From IMG/VR virus record IMGVR_UViG_3300012919_001127, positions 1 through 64,000 of that record: a stretch of DNA of 64,000 nucleotides, one strand, 5' to 3'. Shown piece after piece: positions 1,964 through 9,471 of the stretch. Source of the DNA: an uncultured virus (IMG/VR IMGVR_UViG_3300012919_001127) (Duplodnaviria; Heunggongvirae; Uroviricota; Caudoviricetes). The notes beneath the pieces are model-generated. The model saw only the letters and a list, made by a program, of their open reading frames with translations, was not told the DNA's origin and did no database searches. A program made the translations under genes and the position numbers. Each line of letters opens with the position of its first letter. Within the stretch, counting starts at the first letter, position 1.

Positions 1964-2187
1964 GGATCTTAAGTAGGTCTCTCGAAGAGATCCTAAAAGA
2001 AGTTGAAAATTTAGATAACGAGACTAAAAACTTCAAGCTAGAACTTGCAAGACTATGCTGGTATATGCGTGGGGGTGTGACCCTTGACGAAATGTATGCA
2101 GTTGGTCCTGAGGATCGAGAGATATTCGCAAAACTTGTAAAAGAAAATCTAGAAACTGCTAAAAAGACAAATATGCCTTTCTTTTAG
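1951..2187 (+). CDS. gp51-like C-terminal extension, probably reached by a -1 frameshift from the gp26-like ORF
   Basis: -1 frame is open from 1942 to TAG 2185-2187 (RVRILSRSLEEILKEVENLD...LCWYMRGGVTLDEMY...KENLETAKKTNMPFF); no start codon until ATG 2065; slippery T TTT TTC at 1951-1957. Confidence 0.65.
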   Translation, partial: FFRVRILSRSLEEILKEVENLDNETKNFKLELARLCWYMRGGVTLDEMYAVGPEDREIFAKLVKENLETAKKTNMPFF

Positions 2188-4796
2188 GCTACTTGTTTTT
2201 GTGTAAGTTGTGCCTTAACGGCTTTTTGTAATCCAGCATCACTGATTTGACTTGCTAACGTAGGCAAGTCAATTTGCATTCCTGAACCAAGGTCTTTTCC
2301 AGTACCTGCACTTGCACCTGCTTTAGGTGGTTGACTTAATTGACTTTTAACTTGATCACCTATGCCAGCCTTTTTGATTTGATCAGCTAGTCCTGGTACA
2401 TCAACATCCATTCCTGTTGCTTGTTGTCCTTTGGCTGTGCCTGGTGGCTTAGGTTGTTTGCCGCCTATTGCAGTTTTACCTGCTGTGCCTGGTGGCTTAG
2501 GTTGCTTGTCACCTATTGCTTTTCCAATGCCGCTCTTAGGAGCATCAACTCCGTCTGCTGGTTTTGTTCCAGGCATCTGTATAACTTTGCCTGTCTTGTC
2601 GTCTTTGCCATCTTTGTTAGCATCAACTGGTTTTGCAGTAGCGTCAGTTGACTTTGGATCTTCACCTGGTTTTGCTGTTGCTCCGCCTGGTGTTGGTGCT
2701 TTAGGATCTTCTTCTCCTGCGTCTGGTTTTGCCGCTGGTTTCAAAGGTACCTTTGTGTTTGTTGCTATGGTACCGATGGATTCATCTGATAATCCTGCGT
2801 CAGATAAAATATTAACAATGGTTCCCATGTCTTTTGGTTTGCCCATCTTGGTCCAAGTCTTCATTAATTTTTCTTTGGTAATTTTGTTAGCTAATTGTTT
2901 TGCTCCGCTTTTAACTGCTCCTGCGGCTTTACCTACAGCACCTGAAACTTTTTCTCCTGCCTTGTCCATAGCATCACCAACCTTGTTGGCTCCTGCTTTT
3001 GCAAGTGCTTTCATTTTGTCTAACACCGGACCTTCTTCTAGGTTGTCTTCTAAGAAATCGTTGTAGTCTTCAACTATGCTGTTGTATTTTTCTATGTCTA
3101 TTGATTCTTCTTTTGCATCAGCCTTTTTATCGTCAGCTTTTTTATCGCCTGGTTTGACTTCCATGCCTGCTAATGCGCCGCCAAGTCCAACTGCCGCCGC
3201 GGCTTTAACAATATTTTGCGCCATATCGTCAACTGCTGTTTCCATTGATCCTGACGCTACGTTACTAAACACTTGTTTATATAATTCATCTCTTACATCA
3301 TCTGGTAAATTTTCTAAAGCCTTGTCTAGATTTTCTGTAAACGGATTAGCATCTACAAAAACACTTTTAATTTGGTAAACAGGATTTCCGTCTGCATCAA
3401 CACCTTCAATCATCGATTCAACAGTACCGCTGTATACAGTTCCGTCTGGTAATGTTTTACTAATAGTTGAGTTCCATGTTTGACCAACTTTAATATCATC
3501 CGGTACACCGTCGACTTGTATAGAATCACCAACAACAATTTCATTGGAGGCAGATATACTTGTACCCATCCATTCTTTTTGGGCTACTGCTCTTTCAAAT
3601 CCTTGTGCATTTTGTAATGCTTCAATATCTTCTTCTGTCAGACCAGCATCTAATAATTTTTGTGTGTTTTCAGTTATCCAGGCATTGTCTGGATAGTCTG
3701 CTGAATTTATTCCTGCGTCATTCAAATCATCTGCATCAAGTTTAGCAACAACTTCTGTATCAGTTGCATCTTCTATACCATCACCTGACACATCTGTAGT
3801 TTTTTGTATTTCAACATCTGTGCCTTCAATACCAAATTCGTCTTGCATGGAATCAATAGCCTGATTTAGGTTTCCGCCATCTTCTCCTGCAAGAGCAAAT
3901 ATCTTGTCGTTAACCTGTTTCAATTGACCTTGTAAAACTTCTTTTGCTTCTGCATCAAGATCAGTTGAACGCATCAATTCAGCCATTGCACTTCTTGATT
4001 GTATAAGTTCTTTGGCCGCATCAGCATCTAGGTCAGCCATGCTTGTTGCATCCATGCCGTCAAGTGCTGTTATGTCAATTTCGCCTGAAGCATCATTAAT
4101 GAATGTGTTTGTGATCTCTGGAGGTAACAGCTTGTCTAAAGCATCTCCTAATGCACCTGCCGCCGCACCAATTGCCGCACCTTTAACGGATTTAGCAACT
4201 GCTGTTGACAGTTGATCACCTTTCAATGTGTTACTTGCAAGTTTTAAAAAGAAACCAATTGCCGCACCAGATACAACACCACCACTTGCAAATGCAAGTA
4301 CAGAAGTCATTGCACCAATTACAAATGCCGCCTTGGCTGGATTTTCTTTTGCAAAGCCACCATAACCATCGACAACCTTGAGTATCTTTTGACCCATTGG
4401 GTTGCCTTGAAGTTTTGTTTTTAATTCTGCTTTTAGTTTTTCAAATTGTGCATCAAAGTTTTTTACAGGGCCACTGTTCTGTGCCGCTTTCAATAATTGA
4501 TCTATCTGTGCTTGTAATTTTTTTGCTTGATCGCCAACAACACCTGCGGCCTTGCCTAGTGCAGTTTTGTTGTCGCCACTTTGTACAGCAACTTTTTCTG
4601 CGTTTGTAAAGATGCCATCAATTTGTTTGTCAGTAAGTTCTGCTTCAAATAGTGTGTTGATGCTTTCAACTAATGGCCAAACATTCTTTTCCCATTTTCC
4701 AATATAAATGCGTTGTGCTTCTGTTAGCTCTTGCCAACCTTCCGCAAGTATTGTTTTTGATTTTAAATTATAAGATGTAACTTCACCTAGTTGCAT
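2184..4796 (-). CDS. Large hypothetical virion protein (probable internal head / ejection protein)
   Basis: 870 aa; acidic middle, hydrophobic Gly/Ala helices, Lys/Pro-rich repetitive C-terminus, LxE-type motifs; downstream of a TATAAATA promoter. Confidence 0.55.
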   Translation of the reverse strand: MQLGEVTSYNLKSKTILAEGWQELTEAQRIYIGKWEKNVWPLVESINTLFEAELTDKQIDGIFTNAEKVAVQSGDNKTALGKAAGVVGDQAKKLQAQIDQLLKAAQNSGPVKNFDAQFEKLKAELKTKLQGNPMGQKILKVVDGYGGFAKENPAKAAFVIGAMTSVLAFASGGVVSGAAIGFFLKLASNTLKGDQLSTAVAKSVKGAAIGAAAGALGDALDKLLPPEITNTFINDASGEIDITALDGMDATSMADLDADAAKELIQSRSAMAELMRSTDLDAEAKEVLQGQLKQVNDKIFALAGEDGGNLNQAIDSMQDEFGIEGTDVEIQKTTDVSGDGIEDATDTEVVAKLDADDLNDAGINSADYPDNAWITENTQKLLDAGLTEEDIEALQNAQGFERAVAQKEWMGTSISASNEIVVGDSIQVDGVPDDIKVGQTWNSTISKTLPDGTVYSGTVESMIEGVDADGNPVYQIKSVFVDANPFTENLDKALENLPDDVRDELYKQVFSNVASGSMETAVDDMAQNIVKAAAAVGLGGALAGMEVKPGDKKADDKKADAKEESIDIEKYNSIVEDYNDFLEDNLEEGPVLDKMKALAKAGANKVGDAMDKAGEKVSGAVGKAAGAVKSGAKQLANKITKEKLMKTWTKMGKPKDMGTIVNILSDAGLSDESIGTIATNTKVPLKPAAKPDAGEEDPKAPTPGGATAKPGEDPKSTDATAKPVDANKDGKDDKTGKVIQMPGTKPADGVDAPKSGIGKAIGDKQPKPPGTAGKTAIGGKQPKPPGTAKGQQATGMDVDVPGLADQIKKAGIGDQVKSQLSQPPKAGASAGTGKDLGSGMQIDLPTLASQISDAGLQKAVKAQLTQKQVA
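2434..2519. repeat. 48-bp-period tandem repeat (2 copies) encoding AIG(D/G)KQPKPPGTA
   Basis: gctgtgcctggtggcttaggttg at 2434 and 2482. Confidence 0.85.
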
Positions 4797-5436: not shown

Positions 5437-5631
5437 ATGCCTCAGACGAGATATAATGTTTTTGAGAAAGGCAACTCAGAACCCTTAACCCAATGTAGCG
5501 ATATGCACGAAGCGGATATTGTTATACAACAGTTAAAGGATGCCAATCCACACAAAGAATATGCAGTGGAACCTGTTGTTGTCTACGATAGTGATGCTTT
5601 TCGTTATGGACGCGATCCGGAATTGCATTAG
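5437..5631 (+). CDS. Small hypothetical protein (64 aa)
   Basis: Start moved to ATG 5437 (MPQTRYNVFEKG...) to avoid antisense overlap; TAAATA at 5426-5431 just upstream; terminator hairpin directly after the stop. Confidence 0.6.
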   Translation: MPQTRYNVFEKGNSEPLTQCSDMHEADIVIQQLKDANPHKEYAVEPVVVYDSDAFRYGRDPELH

Positions 5632-5632
5632 T

Positions 5633-5660
5633 AGTTGAGCTAAAGCTCAACTTTGTTTTC
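5633..5660. terminator. Intrinsic terminator hairpin, possibly bidirectional
   Basis: AGTTGAGC-TAAA-GCTCAACT perfect 8-bp stem followed by TTGTTTT on +, lying between converging transcripts. Confidence 0.7.
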
Positions 5661-6040
5661 GTTGTCACTCAAACAATTTTATTATATGAAATAAGTTGCG
5701 AAGCAACTGCTATCATGTAGATAGTTGAGCCATACTTCGCCCGTCTCCGGGCAAAGCAATGATGCCATCATGTAAGATGAGCTTACCATCTTAACTAAGA
5801 AGATTGCATTTCTGCATGGAGGCGGTAACCCGTCAACCCCCTACTTCAGCCTTCGCATAAGTTACGGAATATTAACACACCCTAGTTAAGCAAAGTGTGT
5901 TAACATTGTGGTTGCTTTTTCTCAGAGCCACGATCTTTTAATACCTAAGTTAGTATCAACCTTGCAACGCACCAGTTCCAGTCATAAGATCAGTATGACC
6001 TCAAGGTGAGTCGAGCTATCCCGACCAAACAATGTTGCTA
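5633..6040 (-). ncRNA. Candidate large structured non-coding RNA (~350-400 nt), family not recognised
   Basis: No ORF of 60 aa or more; GC-richer than flanks; about ten hairpins, GNRA tetraloops (GAGA, GAAA) and G-U wobbles mostly on the - strand; 10-bp loop pseudoknot. Confidence 0.6.
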
Positions 6041-6049
6041 TATAGAATT

Positions 6050-6472
6050 TTATTTTGCCTTGAGTGCTTCTTTAAGTAATTTAGATCCGCCTACTCTCAC
6101 GTTTATTATGCCATTGTAGTATTCATCTGTTTCTAACACTCTACGTTCAAACTGTTCTCTTGCCTCTAAGTAACTTGCTACGCCTCTGCTTGGACAATAA
6201 TGTAATATTTCTCTTGTGAATTTTTCTTCGCCTAGTTTTTCTACGTCTGATTGCAAATGATCTGATGATCCCCAGTAGTCACGCCAGTCACTTTCAACTT
6301 TGCTTCTACGTTTGTTTATCTTACCCTTGAGAGGTGGGCGTGTCTTTCTGAATTTTGCTAGTTTTTTGCCGACATATTTCATACCGTTGGTTGTATTTGT
6401 GATCAAATACACAAATGCTTCACAGTCTTCAGGTAAGTTTTCTACGGTTTTTCCTTGATATGTCCAGTGCAT
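6050..6472 (-). CDS. Stand-alone GIY-YIG family endonuclease
   Basis: AFVYLITNTTNGMKYVGKK (GIY-YIG motif), YWGSS, YLEAREQF (catalytic Glu), YYNG; no C-terminal DNA-binding module. Confidence 0.8.
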   Translation of the reverse strand: MHWTYQGKTVENLPEDCEAFVYLITNTTNGMKYVGKKLAKFRKTRPPLKGKINKRRSKVESDWRDYWGSSDHLQSDVEKLGEEKFTREILHYCPSRGVASYLEAREQFERRVLETDEYYNGIINVRVGGSKLLKEALKAK

Positions 6473-6489
6473 TATAAAGATACTTACAC

Positions 6490-6690
6490 TTAATCTTTAT
6501 TTGGATCTTCTTTTTTGGCTTTGTAGTCGTCTATTATTTCTTTTCTTCGGTCAGTAGCAAGTCTACGTATCTCGCTTAACCATTTTCTAGCAGAACGTTT
6601 AGTGCGTTCGCTCTTGCGTATTTCCCAGGCTTCGTTAGCCTTATAGTATTCTAGATATGCTTTTGTTAACTTGTCGTGTGTATCGTCCAT
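6490..6690 (-). CDS. Small basic helical protein, histone-H1-like (Hc1-type) candidate
   Basis: 66 aa; ARKWLSEIRRLATDRRKEI resembles the RARKxxxELxKLxKxxRKE pattern of Hc1-like proteins. Confidence 0.45.
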   Translation of the reverse strand: MDDTHDKLTKAYLEYYKANEAWEIRKSERTKRSARKWLSEIRRLATDRRKEIIDDYKAKKEDPNKD

Positions 6691-8462
6691 TATGTCATTA
6701 CCTCTACATCATTATCATATGATGTAAATCCATTTTCTTTGATTACTTTCAACACGTTTGTAACACGACTTGCTAATTCTTCTTTGTGTGATATCAAATA
6801 AATGTTCTTTTGACGTTCTCTACCCATTTTCTTCAATACAGCAATGGCATTTTCTACACCATTTGCATCCATACCACTATCAACCAATTCATCAATAAAC
6901 AATAGGTTGATATTTTGATACAAACTTTCCCACACATCTCTAAATGCCCAACTCAATCCTAGTATTAATCTGTTTCTTTCACCTCTTGACAAGTTGTCAA
7001 AGTCTAAATCTTGTCCTAGTTGTGTGATTTCAACAGTTAGATCATTTTTAAACACCACTGTGTGTGGAAGTTGTAGTCTATCCAAATAATGTGTAAGTCT
7101 GTTGTTTAGATATGCTAGATTTTGATCAATAATCTTTTTCCTAATGAAAGAATCTTTGTTTGTCAACAGCTTGTATAAAAAGTCTTGGTGATCCTTTGTG
7201 TCATTTAGTTCATTAACGGCATCCCAGTTTACTTCTTGTATTGCAGTTTTTTCTAAATCCTCAATTTGTTCTGTGTATGGATCAAGTTCATCAGTCTTTT
7301 CTTTCAAACTTTGTTTCAAACTGTCAACGTTGCTTCTGTGTTGATATGCTTCTTTGGCAGTTTCATAAAATGTATTTGGCTTACTGTCAAGTTCGCCTAT
7401 GTCTTCAATAAGTTTTTCAACCTTTTGCATTTTTTCAGCCATGCTTGTTTGATAAACGTGTGCATCACCATAATCTTTTTGCAGTTTATCTTTCATTTCT
7501 TCAAGTTTGTCATCATGCAAGTCTTGACCACAAGCATAACATTTGGCAGTTTCAAGTTCATCAAGTTGTTTACCAAGTTTGTTTACATTATTATCAGCTT
7601 GTTCTAATGCACGTTCAACAGTTGCACGTTCTTTTCTTAAATTAGTAAGATGTTTACTGTTTTCTTCCCAAGTTTTTAGTTTTTCATGATCTTCAAGTTC
7701 ACTATCTATGTCAAGTTGCTCTAATTCACGTATTGCTTTTTCTAGTTTATCTCTGTCTTGTTTGTTTTGTGCAATCCAAGCCTTTTTTCTGCTGTGCAAT
7801 CTTTCAATATTTTCTTTGATCTTATCATTGCTGTTTGTGATTGCTTGTATTCTTGCGTTTTCTTCTGTAAGTTTATCTCTTGTTATTTTTGTTGCCTCTC
7901 TTAATAGATCAGCTTTTTCAGAAAGAATTGTAATACCAAGTAATTGTTCTATTATAGCACGTTGATCGTTTGGCTTTAGTGCTAAAAAGGGCTCTGTGTA
8001 AGTGTTAAGTGCCACAATATGCTTGAACATATCATGACTCATACCTAACAAGTCATTTATATCGCCTTGTGTTTTACGTGAATCACCTTGGCTTTCATCT
8101 GTAAGTTCTTGTTCTTTTTGATCTATGTAAAATTTAAGTGTGTTAGGTTTACGTCCTCTTTCTATTCTATAATCTTTGCCATTTTTAGTAAATGCAAGAG
8201 TAACTAACATACCTTTGTTGTTTGTTTTGTTTACAAGATTATCACGTCTAATGTTTGTAAGTGCTTGTCCGTAAAGTGCATAACTCAAAGCATTAATAAT
8301 TGTTGTTTTACCTGTACCGTTACGTGATCCACTGTCGTCTCCACCTTGATCTAAGTTTTCACCTAACACCAATGTAAGTTGTTGCTTGTTGAAATCTACT
8401 GCCTGTGTTGTGTTACCAACACTCATAAAATTTTTAACTGTCAAATCTTGTATTCTAATCAT
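6690..8462 (-). CDS. gp46: Recombination endonuclease ATPase subunit (Rad50/SbcC, T4 gp46)
   Basis: KNFMS, Walker A NGTGKT, coiled coil with CYAC zinc hook, LSRGE signature, LFIDE Walker B, ISHK. Confidence 0.93.
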   Translation of the reverse strand: MIRIQDLTVKNFMSVGNTTQAVDFNKQQLTLVLGENLDQGGDDSGSRNGTGKTTIINALSYALYGQALTNIRRDNLVNKTNNKGMLVTLAFTKNGKDYRIERGRKPNTLKFYIDQKEQELTDESQGDSRKTQGDINDLLGMSHDMFKHIVALNTYTEPFLALKPNDQRAIIEQLLGITILSEKADLLREATKITRDKLTEENARIQAITNSNDKIKENIERLHSRKKAWIAQNKQDRDKLEKAIRELEQLDIDSELEDHEKLKTWEENSKHLTNLRKERATVERALEQADNNVNKLGKQLDELETAKCYACGQDLHDDKLEEMKDKLQKDYGDAHVYQTSMAEKMQKVEKLIEDIGELDSKPNTFYETAKEAYQHRSNVDSLKQSLKEKTDELDPYTEQIEDLEKTAIQEVNWDAVNELNDTKDHQDFLYKLLTNKDSFIRKKIIDQNLAYLNNRLTHYLDRLQLPHTVVFKNDLTVEITQLGQDLDFDNLSRGERNRLILGLSWAFRDVWESLYQNINLLFIDELVDSGMDANGVENAIAVLKKMGRERQKNIYLISHKEELASRVTNVLKVIKENGFTSYDNDVEVMT

Positions 8463-9471
8463 CTTTGTTTAGGTCTCTATAAATTTGCAACAATTTACCT
8501 TTGTTAAATTGTTCTGATTCAATTGCTTCAATCTCTTTTGCAACTATTTCATCAACACTTTCAAACTTTGTAATGTCGATATCCGAATTCATTTCTTCTT
8601 CTTGTGTGTTTGGTATTAAACTTATCTCTCTACAGTTGTACTGATTGATAAAAGTTTCTTTTATGAAGTTTGCTTCTTCATAACTAATAGGCAAATCAAG
8701 TGTAACTCTTAGATACATCTTAGATTTTAGTATAGTTTCTTTTTCATCAAGCAGTCTTGATAATTTTATTGTTCTATACTTGGGGCAATTCCACCAATTG
8801 ATGTACTGCGGTTCGCCACCATGTTCTAGTATCATCATACCACGTTCATCATCCCACGCATCTGCGTAATTGTGTGGCAATGCGTTACCAATGTAATGCA
8901 CAGGACCTTTGACTTGGCGTTTGTGGAAGTGTCCACTGAACACATATTCTTGATGTTTAAAGTGATCTGCTTGTAATTCACCAGTGTCTGGCATCTGAAC
9001 CATTGCATTCATGTAAAAGTTAGGAAGTTCAAAGTGTCCAAAGATGTATTTGCTTTTTATTTTAGGAATCTTCTTCCATTCATCTCCAACCAACCACGGA
9101 ATAAGTGTAACATCACCTTCTGTCATCATCTCATTTACCATTGTGATGCCTTCAATGTGTCTTGCAAAGTCTATGGAGTTGATATCTCTTTTGTCTTTGT
9201 AGTATAAATCATGATTGCCAGGAAAGAAATAAAATTTTTCAAAAGCCTTGCCTAGCTTTTCAAGACTTCTAATAGTTGCGTCCATGGTCAGCATATTCAA
9301 ACTGTTTCTGTTGTGATGCCAGTCGCCACAAAAGATACCAGTTTCGCAACCGTTTTCTTTGGCTTGTTCTATATACCAATCAATAAATTCTTCACAGTCA
9401 TCATTGTGAATTTTTGAATTAGACTTCAATCCAAAATGGATGTCTGTAAATACTGCCGCTTTCTTAAACAA
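8455..9471 (-). CDS. gp47: Recombination endonuclease nuclease subunit (Mre11/SbcD, T4 gp47)
   Basis: Metallophosphoesterase motifs TDIHFG, GD, GNHD, GHFE, SGHFH; adjacent to gp46. Confidence 0.93.
   Translation of the reverse strand: MFKKAAVFTDIHFGLKSNSKIHNDDCEEFIDWYIEQAKENGCETGIFCGDWHHNRNSLNMLTMDATIRSLEKLGKAFEKFYFFPGNHDLYYKDKRDINSIDFARHIEGITMVNEMMTEGDVTLIPWLVGDEWKKIPKIKSKYIFGHFELPNFYMNAMVQMPDTGELQADHFKHQEYVFSGHFHKRQVKGPVHYIGNALPHNYADAWDDERGMMILEHGGEPQYINWWNCPKYRTIKLSRLLDEKETILKSKMYLRVTLDLPISYEEANFIKETFINQYNCREISLIPNTQEEEMNSDIDITKFESVDEIVAKEIEAIESEQFNKGKLLQIYRDLNKDD

What the first reader, a model, noticed from the sequence alone, without database searches (positions are those of the whole stretch)
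5633..6472. Stand-alone GIY-YIG nuclease followed by a ~400-nt highly structured candidate ncRNA: possible nuclease-RNA system
Seen: the ~420 nt after the GIY-YIG stop is the largest non-coding gap in this gene-dense window, and on the - strand it is packed with helices. They include GUCGGG/CUCGAC (6025-6010), ACCUUG/CAAGGU (6007-6002 with 5964-5959) enclosing GUCAUA/UAUGAC (5999-5981), a 9-bp UUAACACAC stem (5903-5872), GGGGG..CGG-GUUA-CCG..CCUCC (5841-5818), UGCA-GAAA-UGCA (5816-5805) and CUUUGCCCG-GAGA-CGGGCGAAG (5756-5735). Two GNRA loops and most G-U wobbles work only on the - strand, the same strand as the nuclease. The 140-aa nuclease has only the catalytic domain plus a Lys/Arg-rich insert (KFRKTRPPLKGKINKRRSK). 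Known: GIY-YIG homing enzymes such as I-TevI use separate DNA-binding domains, and compact nucleases paired with adjacent RNAs exist (IscB/HEARO, TnpB). Inference: a co-transcribed RNP in which the RNA acts as scaffold, guide or substrate, or else a new large phage RNA.
Basis: partly seen in the sequence, partly recalled or inferred. Interest (0 to 1): 0.85.

Follow-up and report, generated by a model that had tools for sequence, protein, structure and literature searches.

The report
New folded RNA in marine phages
The stretch after this small nuclease gene encodes a real, heavily folded RNA of about 350 bases that is conserved in hundreds of uncultured aquatic T4-like phages and matches no catalogued RNA family, but it does not look like a dedicated partner of the nuclease.

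Summary
Window 5632-6049 is the largest ORF-free gap in the window. Its minus strand folds far better than shuffles (z -5.6, against -2.8 for the plus strand).

The same RNA lies directly after the GIY-YIG gene in 74 of 80 related phage contigs; the other 6 end too early to tell. On 41 sequences, 49 of 86 base pairs change on both sides, and the covariation score is 0.348 against 0.157 in shuffles (0 of 500 reach it). Two long-range pseudoknots are supported.

The window RNA matches no Rfam 15 family and no tRNA or tmRNA.

The RNA proper spans about 6043-5694 and ends at its own terminator-like hairpin. The last 60 nt of the gap belong to the terminator of a convergent gene.

Its most conserved part carries two copies of one 6-nt core (ACAUGA here). 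The two copies always change together, and neither pairs with anything inside the RNA.

A dedicated nuclease-RNA complex is not supported:
- one sublineage has an unrelated PD-(D/E)XK nuclease in the same slot with an essentially unchanged RNA;
- homologous GIY-YIG genes in Melnitz and cyanophages have no such RNA;
- one locus has the RNA without a nuclease.

Best reading: an autonomous, co-transcribed phage RNA that offers two identical binding sites. Its function is unknown.

The parts
5694..6043 (-). Structured RNA gene, about 350 nt. It runs from the conserved AUAG just before P1 to the H11 terminator-like hairpin.
   Evidence: Iterated nhmmer profile: 74 of 80 GIY-YIG loci carry it directly after the stop codon on the same strand. 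Covariation. No Rfam match. ARAGORN finds nothing.
5964..6038 (-). 5' three-way junction. P1 is 6038-6034 with 5968-5964. P2 is 6026-6020 with 6015-6009. P3 is 6008-6005 with 5973-5970. P3a is 6000-5994 with 5986-5980.
   Evidence: P1 and P2 are 100% paired with 2 compensatory pairs each. P3 and P3a have compensatory changes in all 4 and all 7 pairs; part of the subgroup-2 rows is misaligned, so only 75-76% of cells pair.
5871..5956 (-). Hairpins P4, P5 and P6. P4 is 5956-5953 with 5944-5941, with a conserved CUAAC loop. P5 is 5931-5928 with 5911-5908, loop CUCUGNGAAAAAG..CAA. P6 is 5904-5895 with 5880-5871.
   Evidence: P5 is 100% paired with 3 of 4 pairs compensatory. P6 has 6 of 10 pairs compensatory. 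P4 is supported by eye (AUAC/GUAU, AGC/GCU, AGAC/GUCU) but is misaligned in A2.
5790..5890 (-). Pseudoknot PK-A. The P6 loop (5890-5882) pairs with 5798-5790 and ties the 5' domain to the 3' domain.
   Evidence: helix 9: 94% of cells paired, 6 of 9 pairs with changes on both sides. It was first suggested by RNAalifold.
5825..5865 (-). Pseudoknot PK-B. GUAAC (5865-5861) pairs with GUUAC (5829-5825) in the loop of Hb.
   Evidence: Found by an all-against-all column scan. helix 10: 100% paired, 4 of 5 pairs compensatory.
5799..5847 (-). Ha (5847-5844 with 5802-5799) encloses Hb (5841-5837 with 5822-5818) and H8 (5816-5813 with 5808-5805).
   Evidence: Ha is 98.7% paired with 4 of 4 pairs compensatory (GAAG/CUUC, GGAG/CUCC, GGAA/UUCC, GUAG/CUAC, AAGG/CCUU). 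Hb is 100% paired. H8 has 3 compensatory pairs.
5767..5777 (-). Twin motif, unit A: CUUACAUGAUG, core ACAUGA at 5773-5768. It appears single-stranded.
   Evidence: the core is the same as in unit B in every RNA examined. No complementary partner exists inside the RNA.
5735..5756 (-). H10, a GC-rich 9-bp clamp hairpin between the two twin units (CUUUGCCCG-GAGA-CGGGCGAAG).
   Evidence: helix 15: 94.5% paired. It changes to GAUGGAACC/GGUUCCGUC in the other large subgroup.
5712..5722 (-). Twin motif, unit B: UCUACAUGAUA, core ACAUGA at 5718-5713. It lies inside the most conserved stretch of the RNA.
5694..5708 (-). H11 hairpin followed by UAUUU. This is the likely 3' end (intrinsic-terminator-like) of the RNA.
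   Evidence: Terminator scan. It covaries by eye as GUUGC/GCAAC, GUGC/GCAC and AUAAC/GUUAU, but is badly aligned in A2 (35.6% of cells paired).
6050..6472 (-). GIY-YIG nuclease gene, 140 aa, catalytic domain only, SegE/I-TevI type.
   Evidence: PF19835 at 118.8 bits against a cut-off of 25; phrog_447. AlphaFold2 model with pLDDT 86.9; best PDB fold match is the I-TevI catalytic domain (probability 0.85, E 0.28). Median dN/dS 0.10.
6490..8462 (-). Upstream genes of the same strand block: orf66 (6490-6690) and the gp46/SbcC-like recombination nuclease subunit (6690-8462). gp47/SbcD-like follows at 8455-9471.
   Evidence: The gp46 C-terminus lies upstream of the nuclease and RNA in 54 of 54 loci with enough flank.
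5437..5652 (+). Convergent 64-aa ORF (5437-5631) with its own terminator hairpin (5633-5652). This bounds the RNA locus and is not part of the RNA.
   Evidence: A homolog is present in 16 of 54 loci.

Best explanation
Window 6043-5694 (minus strand) is the gene of a previously uncatalogued, doubly pseudoknotted structured RNA of about 350 nt; relatives reach about 550 nt. It is the last element of the gp47-gp46-orf66-nuclease strand block in a large lineage of uncultured marine and freshwater T4-like myophages.

Shown:
- The RNA exists as a conserved, covarying, strand-specific structure.
- It starts a few bases after the nuclease stop codon and ends at its own terminator-like hairpin.
- It has a swappable structured 5' domain that docks by a pseudoknot onto a conserved 3' domain.
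- The 3' core is unit A, then the H10 clamp hairpin, then unit B, then H11. It displays two copies of one 6-nt core (ACAUGA in the window) that always change together and pair with nothing inside the RNA.

Inferred:
- It is transcribed as the 3' part of the nuclease mRNA.
- It acts as an autonomous, stable, trans-acting RNA whose two identical single-stranded elements are binding sites for one partner present twice or as a dimer. That partner could be an RNA-binding protein of phage or host, or a second RNA. The RNA would then be a decoy, sponge or assembly platform.
- The neighbouring nuclease is a conserved phage enzyme of the recombination block, not the RNA's specific partner.
For: Structure. 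37 of 91 RNAalifold pairs are compensatory in 16 sequences. On 41 sequences, 84.6% of cells pair against 72.8% in shuffles. 49 of 86 pairs change on both sides. The covariation score is 0.348 against 0.157 (0 of 500 shuffles reach it), and slid controls give 0.06-0.14. Many G-U pairs make the fold strand-specific.

Spread.
- 74 of 80 GIY-YIG loci carry the RNA; the other 6 have 273 nt or less downstream.
- 305 of the 481 loci held carry the 3' core, with 151 distinct sequences.

Not catalogued. Rfam gives 0 matches for the window at gathering scores and nothing credible at E up to 10. Further Rfam scans of 20, 14, 12 and 10 related loci gave only RF01718, in two loci.

Ends. A terminator-like H11 was found. 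RNA-library contigs bridge the nuclease stop and the RNA start in three studies. The stretch is held by 19 RNA runs among the 20 rows, which come from 17 studies.

Twin motif. The core is identical in both units in 190 of 195 distinct RNAs by alignment column. The other 5 are gap artefacts that also agree in the raw sequence. Eight variants occur: ACAUGA, GCAUGA, AGAUAA, GCAUAA, CGUGA, UCAUGA, ACUUGA, AUAUGA. No consistent intramolecular complement exists.

Independence from the nuclease.
- The PD-(D/E)XK swap leaves the RNA unchanged.
- GIY-YIG homologs occur without the RNA.
- The RNA occurs without a nuclease in L150.
- The GIY-YIG gene is under purifying selection: median dN/dS 0.10, maximum 0.20.
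Against: No partner for the twin motif was identified, so the decoy or platform function is pure inference.

Almost every RNA locus with enough upstream sequence has a nuclease gene immediately upstream: 58 GIY-YIG, 4 PD-(D/E)XK and 1 none of 63, and 64 of 64 GIY-YIG. The rows of the two scans overlap. No 'empty' slot was seen in the gp46 context, and when the nuclease was replaced it was replaced by another nuclease. This fits functional coupling as well as it fits plain synteny.

The expression evidence rests on assembled contigs from RNA libraries. These cannot show strand, ends or abundance, and may contain DNA.

I built no covariance model. The alignments are MAFFT and nhmmer alignments, and several helices (P4, P6, H11) are partly misaligned.
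Confidence: 0.5

Rival explanations
1. Nuclease-RNA module. The RNA works together with whichever nuclease is encoded just upstream. It could be a regulator or inhibitor, a recruiting scaffold, or an R-loop or branched-structure former on which a structure-specific nuclease acts within the recombination block.
For: A nuclease gene sits directly upstream in 62 of 63 and 64 of 64 RNA loci with room. In 10 of 10 loci the GIY-YIG gene is displaced in place by a PF24608 PD-(D/E)XK nuclease, with the RNA beginning about 14-33 nt after that gene. The transcripts appear contiguous in RNA-library contigs. Both superfamilies include structure-specific DNA nucleases (recalled knowledge).
Against: The adjacency is one inherited synteny (gp46 upstream in 54 of 54), so the counts are not independent. 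An RNA that scaffolds a protein should change when an unrelated fold replaces that protein, but the PD-(D/E)XK-linked RNA aligns along its length with GIY-YIG-linked ones and has the same twin cores. The GIY-YIG family works without the RNA in Melnitz and cyanophages. L150 has the RNA core without a nuclease. No guide-like variable single-stranded segment was seen.
Confidence: 0.2
2. Homing-endonuclease slot. The nuclease genes are free-standing homing endonucleases that settled beside, and target, the conserved RNA gene, as T4 SegB sits in the tRNA cluster. The RNA is merely the conserved landing site.
For: The Pfam family is named for SegE, and the best fold match is the I-TevI catalytic domain. 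Two unrelated nuclease families occupy the same slot. Cyanophage homologs lie next to tRNA genes. The RNA contains long invariant stretches suited as targets.
Against: No sporadic distribution and no empty site was found among the RNA loci sampled. The gene is intact and under purifying selection (dN/dS 0.10). The protein has no DNA-binding domain beyond the catalytic domain: it is 140 aa and the Pfam domain covers residues 3-123. Its homologs keep a fixed place after nrdB in Melnitz and in the two cyanophages examined, which suggests vertical inheritance.
Confidence: 0.15
3. Cis-acting element of its own locus. The RNA could be a replication-origin or primer RNA (R-loop, ColE1 RNA II-like, as an earlier agent of this scan proposed for the same family). 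Alternatively it could be a 3'-UTR element that stabilises or controls the nuclease mRNA.
For: The RNA is contiguous with the nuclease mRNA and lies at the end of the strand block next to an AT-rich spacer. Earlier finding e1-5735907 (unchecked AI note).
Against: There is no turn in cumulative GC skew at the locus; skew follows gene orientation and turns near 11 kb. About 350-550 nt with two pseudoknots and twin single-stranded motifs is far more than an mRNA stabiliser needs. The RNA core also occurs in another gene context (L150).
Confidence: 0.1
4. A divergent member of a known RNA class: tmRNA (Melnitz-like phages carry a permuted one), a group I intron around the GIY-YIG gene, a ribozyme, or a riboswitch.
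For: In Melnitz a permuted tmRNA plus a glutamine riboswitch sits in a similar layout: a PD-(D/E)XK gene, small ORFs, the RNA right after a stop codon, then a convergent small ORF. Hb has a G-U at its third pair, followed by A. The twin cores always contain UGA or UAA.
Against: ARAGORN finds nothing in the window or in 54 related loci of this family. Rfam tmRNA, intron and ribozyme models are silent. There is no sequence similarity to the Melnitz tmRNA locus. The Hb G-U is not kept in other subgroups. No exon follows the RNA. The spacing of the twin cores is a multiple of 3 in only 6 of the 13 spacings checked, so no reading frame links them.
Confidence: 0.05

Closest known systems
Orphan large structured RNAs found by comparative genomics in phages and bacteria (GOLLD, ROOL, HEARO; names recalled)
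   Same: Hundreds of nucleotides long, many covarying helices and pseudoknots, phage-borne, discovered from sequence alone, function unknown.
   Different: No sequence or model similarity: Rfam 15 holds those families and gave no match. This RNA is fixed at the end of the gp47-gp46-nuclease block and carries a twin single-stranded motif.
Polynucleobacter-1 RNA motif (Rfam RF01718; Weinberg et al. 2010, PMC2864571; table row and supplement alignment seen)
   Same: In two relatives (L065 marine at 59 bits; L328 freshwater at 98 bits) this catalogued orphan motif occupies the 5'-domain position, between the GIY-YIG stop codon and the conserved 3' core of this RNA.
   Different: The window's own RNA does not match RF01718. 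The Rfam model covers 141 positions and not the 3' core. Chromosomal copies in 13 of 121 Polynucleobacter genomes were not seen to carry the GIY-YIG gene or the 3' core; 12 of the 18 matches could be checked, 11 of them chromosomal and 1 the MAG contig itself.
Protein-sequestering small RNAs with repeated single-stranded sites (CsrB/RsmZ type; recalled)
   Same: Repeated identical short single-stranded elements displayed between stable hairpins. This is a working analogy for the twin motif.
   Different: Only two sites, a different motif, a much larger pseudoknotted body, and no known protein partner. The analogy is untested.
Free-standing GIY-YIG homing endonucleases of T-even phages (SegA-G; SegB in the tRNA cluster; recalled) and I-TevI
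   Same: GIY-YIG catalytic domain of the SegE Pfam family; best fold match to the I-TevI catalytic domain; sits beside a stable-RNA gene.
   Different: No DNA-binding domain, no sporadic distribution, strong purifying selection.
RNA-guided compact nucleases with adjacent RNA
   Same: A small nuclease gene next to a long structured RNA on the same strand.
   Different: A different nuclease fold (GIY-YIG or PD-(D/E)XK, not RuvC/HNH). No guide segment was seen. The RNA is unchanged when the nuclease family is swapped. There is no transposon context.

Membership tests
SegE-type GIY-YIG nucleases (Pfam PF19835) | Match to the family profile above the curated cut-off | tested here: met
   118.8 bits against a cut-off of 25, E 2.2e-34, residues 3-123. 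Also phrog_447 at E 1e-37.
SegE-type GIY-YIG nucleases (Pfam PF19835) | Conserved GIY / YIG tyrosines, and the Arg, Glu and Asn of the active site (roles recalled) | tested here: met
   Y22, Y33, G35, R87, E103 and N120 are invariant in 23 sequences. The GIY-YIG-like fold has pLDDT 86.9, and the best PDB match is the I-TevI catalytic domain.
Free-standing homing endonuclease (Seg/I-TevI type) | Separate DNA-binding domain joined to the catalytic domain | tested here: not met
   The protein is 140 aa and the catalytic-domain profile covers residues 3-123. No other Pfam domain was found.
Free-standing homing endonuclease (Seg/I-TevI type) | Sporadic presence or absence among close relatives (empty sites) | tested here: not met
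   No empty slot was found: 58 GIY-YIG, 4 PD-(D/E)XK and 1 other-context locus of 63, and 64 of 64 GIY-YIG. dN/dS is 0.10.
Free-standing homing endonuclease (Seg/I-TevI type) | Site-specific cleavage of the nuclease-less allele | not testable with these tools
   This needs an enzyme assay.
RNA-guided nuclease with adjacent guide/scaffold RNA (IscB, TnpB type) | RuvC or HNH nuclease fold | tested here: not met
   Pfam and the fold search give GIY-YIG. The alternative partner is PF24608 PD-(D/E)XK.
RNA-guided nuclease with adjacent guide/scaffold RNA (IscB, TnpB type) | A variable, unstructured guide segment at one end of a conserved scaffold | tested here: not met
   The variable part is a structured 5' domain with covarying helices. 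The 3' end is the most conserved part.
RNA-guided nuclease with adjacent guide/scaffold RNA (IscB, TnpB type) | RNA and protein form an obligate pair | tested here: not met
   The nuclease was swapped with the RNA unchanged. Protein homologs occur without the RNA. The RNA occurs without a nuclease (L150).
Any Rfam 15 family (including tmRNA, group I/II introns, ribozymes, GOLLD, ROOL, HEARO) | Covariance-model match at the gathering score | tested here: not met
   0 matches in the 64-kb window. Only a chance snoRNA hit at E 6.3 on the other strand.
Polynucleobacter-1 RNA (RF01718) | Covariance-model match at the gathering score (37 bits) | tested here: not met
   Not met for the window RNA. 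Met only for the 5' domain of relatives L065 (59.4 bits) and L328 (98.1 bits).
tmRNA | tRNA-like domain with a CCA end and a tag reading frame | tested here: not met
   ARAGORN finds none in the window or in 54 related loci of this family, but it does find the Melnitz tmRNA. There is no similarity to that locus.
Replication-origin / primer RNA (ColE1 RNA II-like) | Origin signature at the locus | tested here: inconclusive
   Cumulative GC skew does not turn at 5.6-6.1 kb. Skew in such phages follows transcription, so this is a weak test.

The most novel reading that the evidence does not exclude
The RNA and the interchangeable upstream nuclease form a new kind of two-part phage system. A modular RNA has a 5' domain that is exchanged between lineages; in freshwater relatives this domain is the same motif that the putative Polynucleobacter host carries on its chromosome. 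Through its twin sites the RNA captures a host or phage factor, and it directs or restrains a structure-specific nuclease of the recombination block. This would be an RNA-controlled nuclease that is neither CRISPR-like nor OMEGA-like.
Probability: 0.15. Interest if true: 0.88.

Novelty: new variant of a known kind. Interest (0 to 1): 0.68.

Why it matters
Large, intricately folded non-coding RNAs are rare. Most that have been understood turned out to be ribozymes, riboswitch-like sensors or cores of ribonucleoproteins.

This one is abundant. It lies in a lineage of aquatic T4-like phages with no cultured member carrying it. It also has unusually clean comparative support, including two pseudoknots.

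It offers a concrete handle for experiments: two identical 6-nt elements that have changed in step at least seven times.

It also shows that the catalogued orphan motif Polynucleobacter-1 is, in phages, one interchangeable domain of a larger RNA. That links a host-chromosomal RNA motif to a phage RNA.

Finally, the finding corrects an attractive but unsupported idea, that a minimal GIY-YIG nuclease here is RNA-guided.

Tried and rejected
1. tmRNA reading. ARAGORN and Rfam are negative. The Melnitz permuted tmRNA locus has a similar gene layout but no sequence similarity. The two PD-(D/E)XK proteins are unrelated by BLASTP.
2. Group I intron around the GIY-YIG gene. No Rfam hit, and no same-strand exon follows.
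3. A long-range AGAU/AUCU helix proposed by RNAalifold. It has no compensatory change, and its last pair is broken in 18 of 39 rows.
4. A GUCG/UGAC helix in the second subgroup. It is invariant and absent in the first subgroup.
5. An intramolecular partner for the twin cores. None is consistent.
6. Local hairpins around each twin unit. They fail in L052, L081 and the second subgroup (by eye).
7. A reading-frame interpretation of the twin UGA/AUG. The spacing is not a multiple of 3 in 7 of the 13 spacings checked, and there is no start codon in the second subgroup.
8. Targets complementary to the twin motif elsewhere in the window. 4 matches against 3.3 expected.
9. Search of bacterial and archaeal genomes with the 20-mer.
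10. RegA as a candidate partner. PF01818 was not found in the 75-kb record, which is only a fragment, and the control genomes did not ring either, so this says nothing.
11. T4 endonuclease II as the closest nuclease. No sequence match to any solved structure, and it was not seen in the listed Foldseek matches.
12. Read laying. Only assembled contigs were available, so uncovered parts and depth say nothing. One contig in X8 skips 5972-6063, replacing them with 82 other letters; I take it for a variant or another phage.
13. GC skew as an origin test. No signal.
14. I did not try to build a covariance model, because the RNA is longer than the size the tool says it calibrates in time. I used an iterated nhmmer profile instead.
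15. Five literature searches found no description of this RNA.
Full report
WHAT IS THERE

The window is a piece of an uncultured T4-like myophage, an IMG/VR record of 74,999 bases. On the minus strand lie, in order:
- gp47/SbcD-like (8455-9471)
- gp46/SbcC-like (6690-8462)
- a 66-aa ORF (6490-6690)
- a 140-aa GIY-YIG ORF (6050-6472)

After that comes 5632-6049, the largest ORF-free stretch of the whole window at ORF cut-offs of 60, 80 and 100 aa. The GIY-YIG protein matches Pfam PF19835 (SegE_GIY-YIG) at 118.8 bits and phrog_447.

The minus strand of the gap folds with z = -5.64 against dinucleotide shuffles. The plus strand gives only z = -2.76. Rfam 15 gives no match in the window at gathering scores and nothing credible at E up to 10 around the gap. 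ARAGORN finds no tRNA or tmRNA.

THE RNA IS CONSERVED AND COVARIES

Searching IMG/VR with the GIY-YIG protein gave more than 599 relatives, of which the best 80 (77-100% identity) were kept. An nhmmer profile of the gap was iterated on these loci. It finds the element directly after the stop codon, always on the gene's strand, in 74 of 80. The other 6 contigs end 273 nt or less after the gene. No consistent ORF fills the stretch.

RNAalifold on 16 sequences predicts 91 pairs, 37 of them with compensatory double changes. I then wrote down a structure of 16 helices and counted it on a 41-sequence MAFFT alignment (A2). The structure includes two pseudoknots and one test helix. Results:
- 84.6% of cells pair, against 72.8% in shuffles.
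- 49 of 86 pairs change on both sides.
- The covariation score is 0.348 against 0.157 (0 of 500 shuffles reach it).
- Sliding the partners by 1-3 columns drops the score to 0.06-0.14.

P1, P2, P5, Hb and pseudoknot PK-B are 100% paired. Ha is 98.7% paired with all 4 pairs compensatory. PK-A is 94% paired with 6 of 9 pairs compensatory. P4, P6, H11 and part of P3/P3a score lower because MAFFT misaligns one subgroup there. Frequent G-U pairs make the fold specific to the minus strand.

ANATOMY (window coordinates, minus strand)

- A 5' domain: a P1-closed three-way junction with P2 and P3/P3a, then hairpins P4, P5 and P6.
- The P6 loop (5890-5882) pairs with 5798-5790 (PK-A).
- A 3' domain: GUAAC 5865-5861 pairs into the loop of Hb (PK-B), and Ha encloses Hb and H8.
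- The core: unit A (5777-5767), clamp hairpin H10 (5756-5735), unit B (5722-5712), and H11 (5707-5695) followed by UAUUU. A scan flags H11 as terminator-like.

The hairpin at 5633-5652 belongs to the convergent plus-strand ORF 5437-5631, because its T-run is on the plus strand. The RNA is therefore about 350 nt, not 420.

ACCUUG/CAAGGU gives way to P1 and P3. The inner CGG/CCG hairpin gives way to PK-B.

SUBGROUPS AND MODULARITY

The 3' domain is recognisable in every copy. The 5' domain comes in several unalignable but internally structured forms, giving RNAs of about 340-560 nt.

In two relatives the 5'-domain position is taken by a catalogued orphan motif, Polynucleobacter-1 (RF01718):
- L065, marine, 59 bits.
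- L328, 98 bits. This is a 9-kb contig binned with a Polynucleobacter MAG. It has the same gp46 - small ORF - GIY-YIG synteny.

RF01718 also occurs in 13 of 121 Polynucleobacter genomes searched. Loci were returned for 12 of its 18 matches. The 11 chromosomal ones show neither the GIY-YIG gene nor the 3' core, and the two I annotated lie next to DUF6641 genes. The 2010 paper that defined the motif lists it only as a candidate cis-regulatory RNA of Burkholderiales and fresh water (PMC2864571; I saw the table row and the supplement alignment).

THE TWIN MOTIF

Units A and B share an 11-nt element: CUYACAUGAUG in unit A and UCUACAUGAUR in unit B. Across 195 distinct RNAs the 6-nt core is identical in the two units in 190 by alignment column. 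The other 5 are gap artefacts that agree in the raw sequence.

Eight variants occur, always in both units: ACAUGA, GCAUGA, AGAUAA, GCAUAA, CGUGA, UCAUGA, ACUUGA and AUAUGA. The triplet UGA, or UAA, is never lost.

Several simple explanations fail:
- No segment of the RNA is consistently complementary to the core.
- The spacing of the cores (51-70 nt) is a multiple of three in only 6 of the 13 spacings checked, so no frame links them.
- The window holds no excess of complementary sites.

Two copies that change in step without pairing to each other or to a third segment are what one expects of two binding sites for the same outside partner. This is my inference and is untested.

IS IT A NUCLEASE-RNA SYSTEM?

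Searching from the RNA side gave two samples.
- A 20-mer of unit B returned 80 loci. 68 carry the RNA and 12 are chance matches. Of the 63 with enough upstream sequence, 58 have the GIY-YIG gene and 4 have a PF24608 PD-(D/E)XK nuclease in its place. One (L150) has the RNA core in a different gene context with no nuclease.
- A second pattern for the other subgroup gave 80 of 80 with the RNA and 64 of 64 with the GIY-YIG gene. Contigs overlap between the scans.

All 10 IMG/VR relatives of the PD-(D/E)XK protein sit in gp46 - orf66 - PD-(D/E)XK - RNA.

So the adjacency is nearly universal, and the one replacement seen put another nuclease in the slot. Against a specific partnership stand these points:
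- All these loci share one synteny (gp46 upstream in 54 of 54), so they are not independent observations.
- The RNA next to the PD-(D/E)XK gene aligns along its length with GIY-YIG-linked RNAs and has the same twin cores.
- The GIY-YIG family exists without the RNA. In phage Melnitz (72% identity) it follows nrdB with a 148-nt gap. In cyanomyophages (about 40%) it also follows nrdB and lies near tRNA genes.
- The Lys/Arg-rich segment is shared by those RNA-less homologs and models as a confident beta-hairpin.

The nuclease itself is intact and constrained. Median dN/dS is 0.10 and the maximum is 0.20, from 172 usable pairs of 400 sampled among 94 distinct gap-free genes. It has only the catalytic domain. 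Its best PDB fold match is the I-TevI catalytic domain (probability 0.85, E 0.28; no match at E 0.001 or better). The absence of empty sites, together with this constraint, argues against a typical come-and-go homing endonuclease.

EXPRESSION

Of the 20 public runs listed as holding 5600-6500, 19 are on record as RNA, and the 20 rows come from 17 studies. I laid four of them; all are kept as assembled contigs.
- Contigs bridge the nuclease stop and the RNA start in X5 (5975-6348), X8 (5943-6156) and X16 (5838-6124).
- In X1 two contigs meet at 6022-6051.

This fits co-transcription. It cannot show strand, ends or level, and DNA carry-over is possible.

OTHER READINGS TESTED

- tmRNA. Melnitz-like phages carry a permuted tmRNA with a glutamine riboswitch (PMC9004378, passages seen). 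In Melnitz it sits in a similar layout after a PD-(D/E)XK gene. There is no similarity to the present RNA.
- Origin or primer RNA. An earlier agent of this scan met the same family in another genome and proposed this reading. I find no GC-skew turn at the locus, which is a weak test.
- Literature. Five searches found no description of this RNA.

VERDICT

The finding is a real, abundant and uncatalogued pseudoknotted phage RNA. The most economical account is an autonomous RNA, co-transcribed at the end of the recombination-nuclease block, with a modular 5' domain and a conserved core offering two identical binding sites. A functional tie to the upstream nuclease remains possible (about 0.2) but is not required by the data. 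What the RNA does is unknown. The twin motif is the place to start.

Noticed in passing
L065:2992-3136; L328:1947-2082; G039:C1:2130772-2130906 and 11 other Polynucleobacter loci (L337-L348): The orphan Rfam motif Polynucleobacter-1 (RF01718) is, in two phage loci, the 5' domain of this larger RNA. In 13 of 121 Polynucleobacter genomes it stands alone. In the two loci annotated it lies next to a DUF6641 gene and inside a roughly 640-nt non-coding region. The trailer after H11 in L328 (UGAGCGACAAGCGAAA...) also resembles the end of that chromosomal region (72% over 65 nt).
   Followed up: partly
window 5437-5652 (+): A convergent 64-aa ORF of no known family, with a clean intrinsic terminator (5633-5652). 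A homolog follows the RNA in 16 of 54 related loci.
   Followed up: partly
phage records KX349298.1, NC_048804.1 and many others; phrog_447: This GIY-YIG family is annotated 'NAD synthetase' in many cyanophage and other myophage records and in PHROGs. The Pfam match, the conserved catalytic residues and the fold say it is a GIY-YIG nuclease, so the label looks like a propagated misannotation.
   Followed up: partly
L361 (MZ577097.1 44781-46593): In phage Melnitz the permuted tmRNA plus glutamine riboswitch lies right after a small ORF's stop codon, downstream of a PD-(D/E)XK nuclease gene and before a convergent small ORF. This is the same layout as the RNA locus studied here, but without sequence similarity.
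   Followed up: partly
L324/L325 (PBPT01000016.1, 335 kb; PBPT01000082.1, 153 kb): Two very long contigs binned as a Neomarinimicrobiota MAG carry the gp46 - orf66 - GIY-YIG - RNA block. CheckV rates the 75-kb window record as only 20% complete. Part of this lineage may therefore be very large phages, or the contigs may be mis-binned.
   Followed up: no
L074:2939-3583: One relative has about 650 nt inserted between the GIY-YIG stop codon and the RNA. L008-L011 and L041/L042 have a 66-80-nt insert at the same place.
   Followed up: no
L150:693-1446: The conserved 3' core, with a different 5' part, lies in a 750-nt non-coding region of an unrelated-looking contig, between a Cys-rich 108-aa ORF and a 97-aa ORF, with no nuclease nearby.
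   Followed up: partly
window 2184-4796 (-): An 870-aa ORF rich in Ala/Gly/Lys/Asp low-complexity repeats, with no PHROG match, lies downstream of the locus.
   Followed up: no
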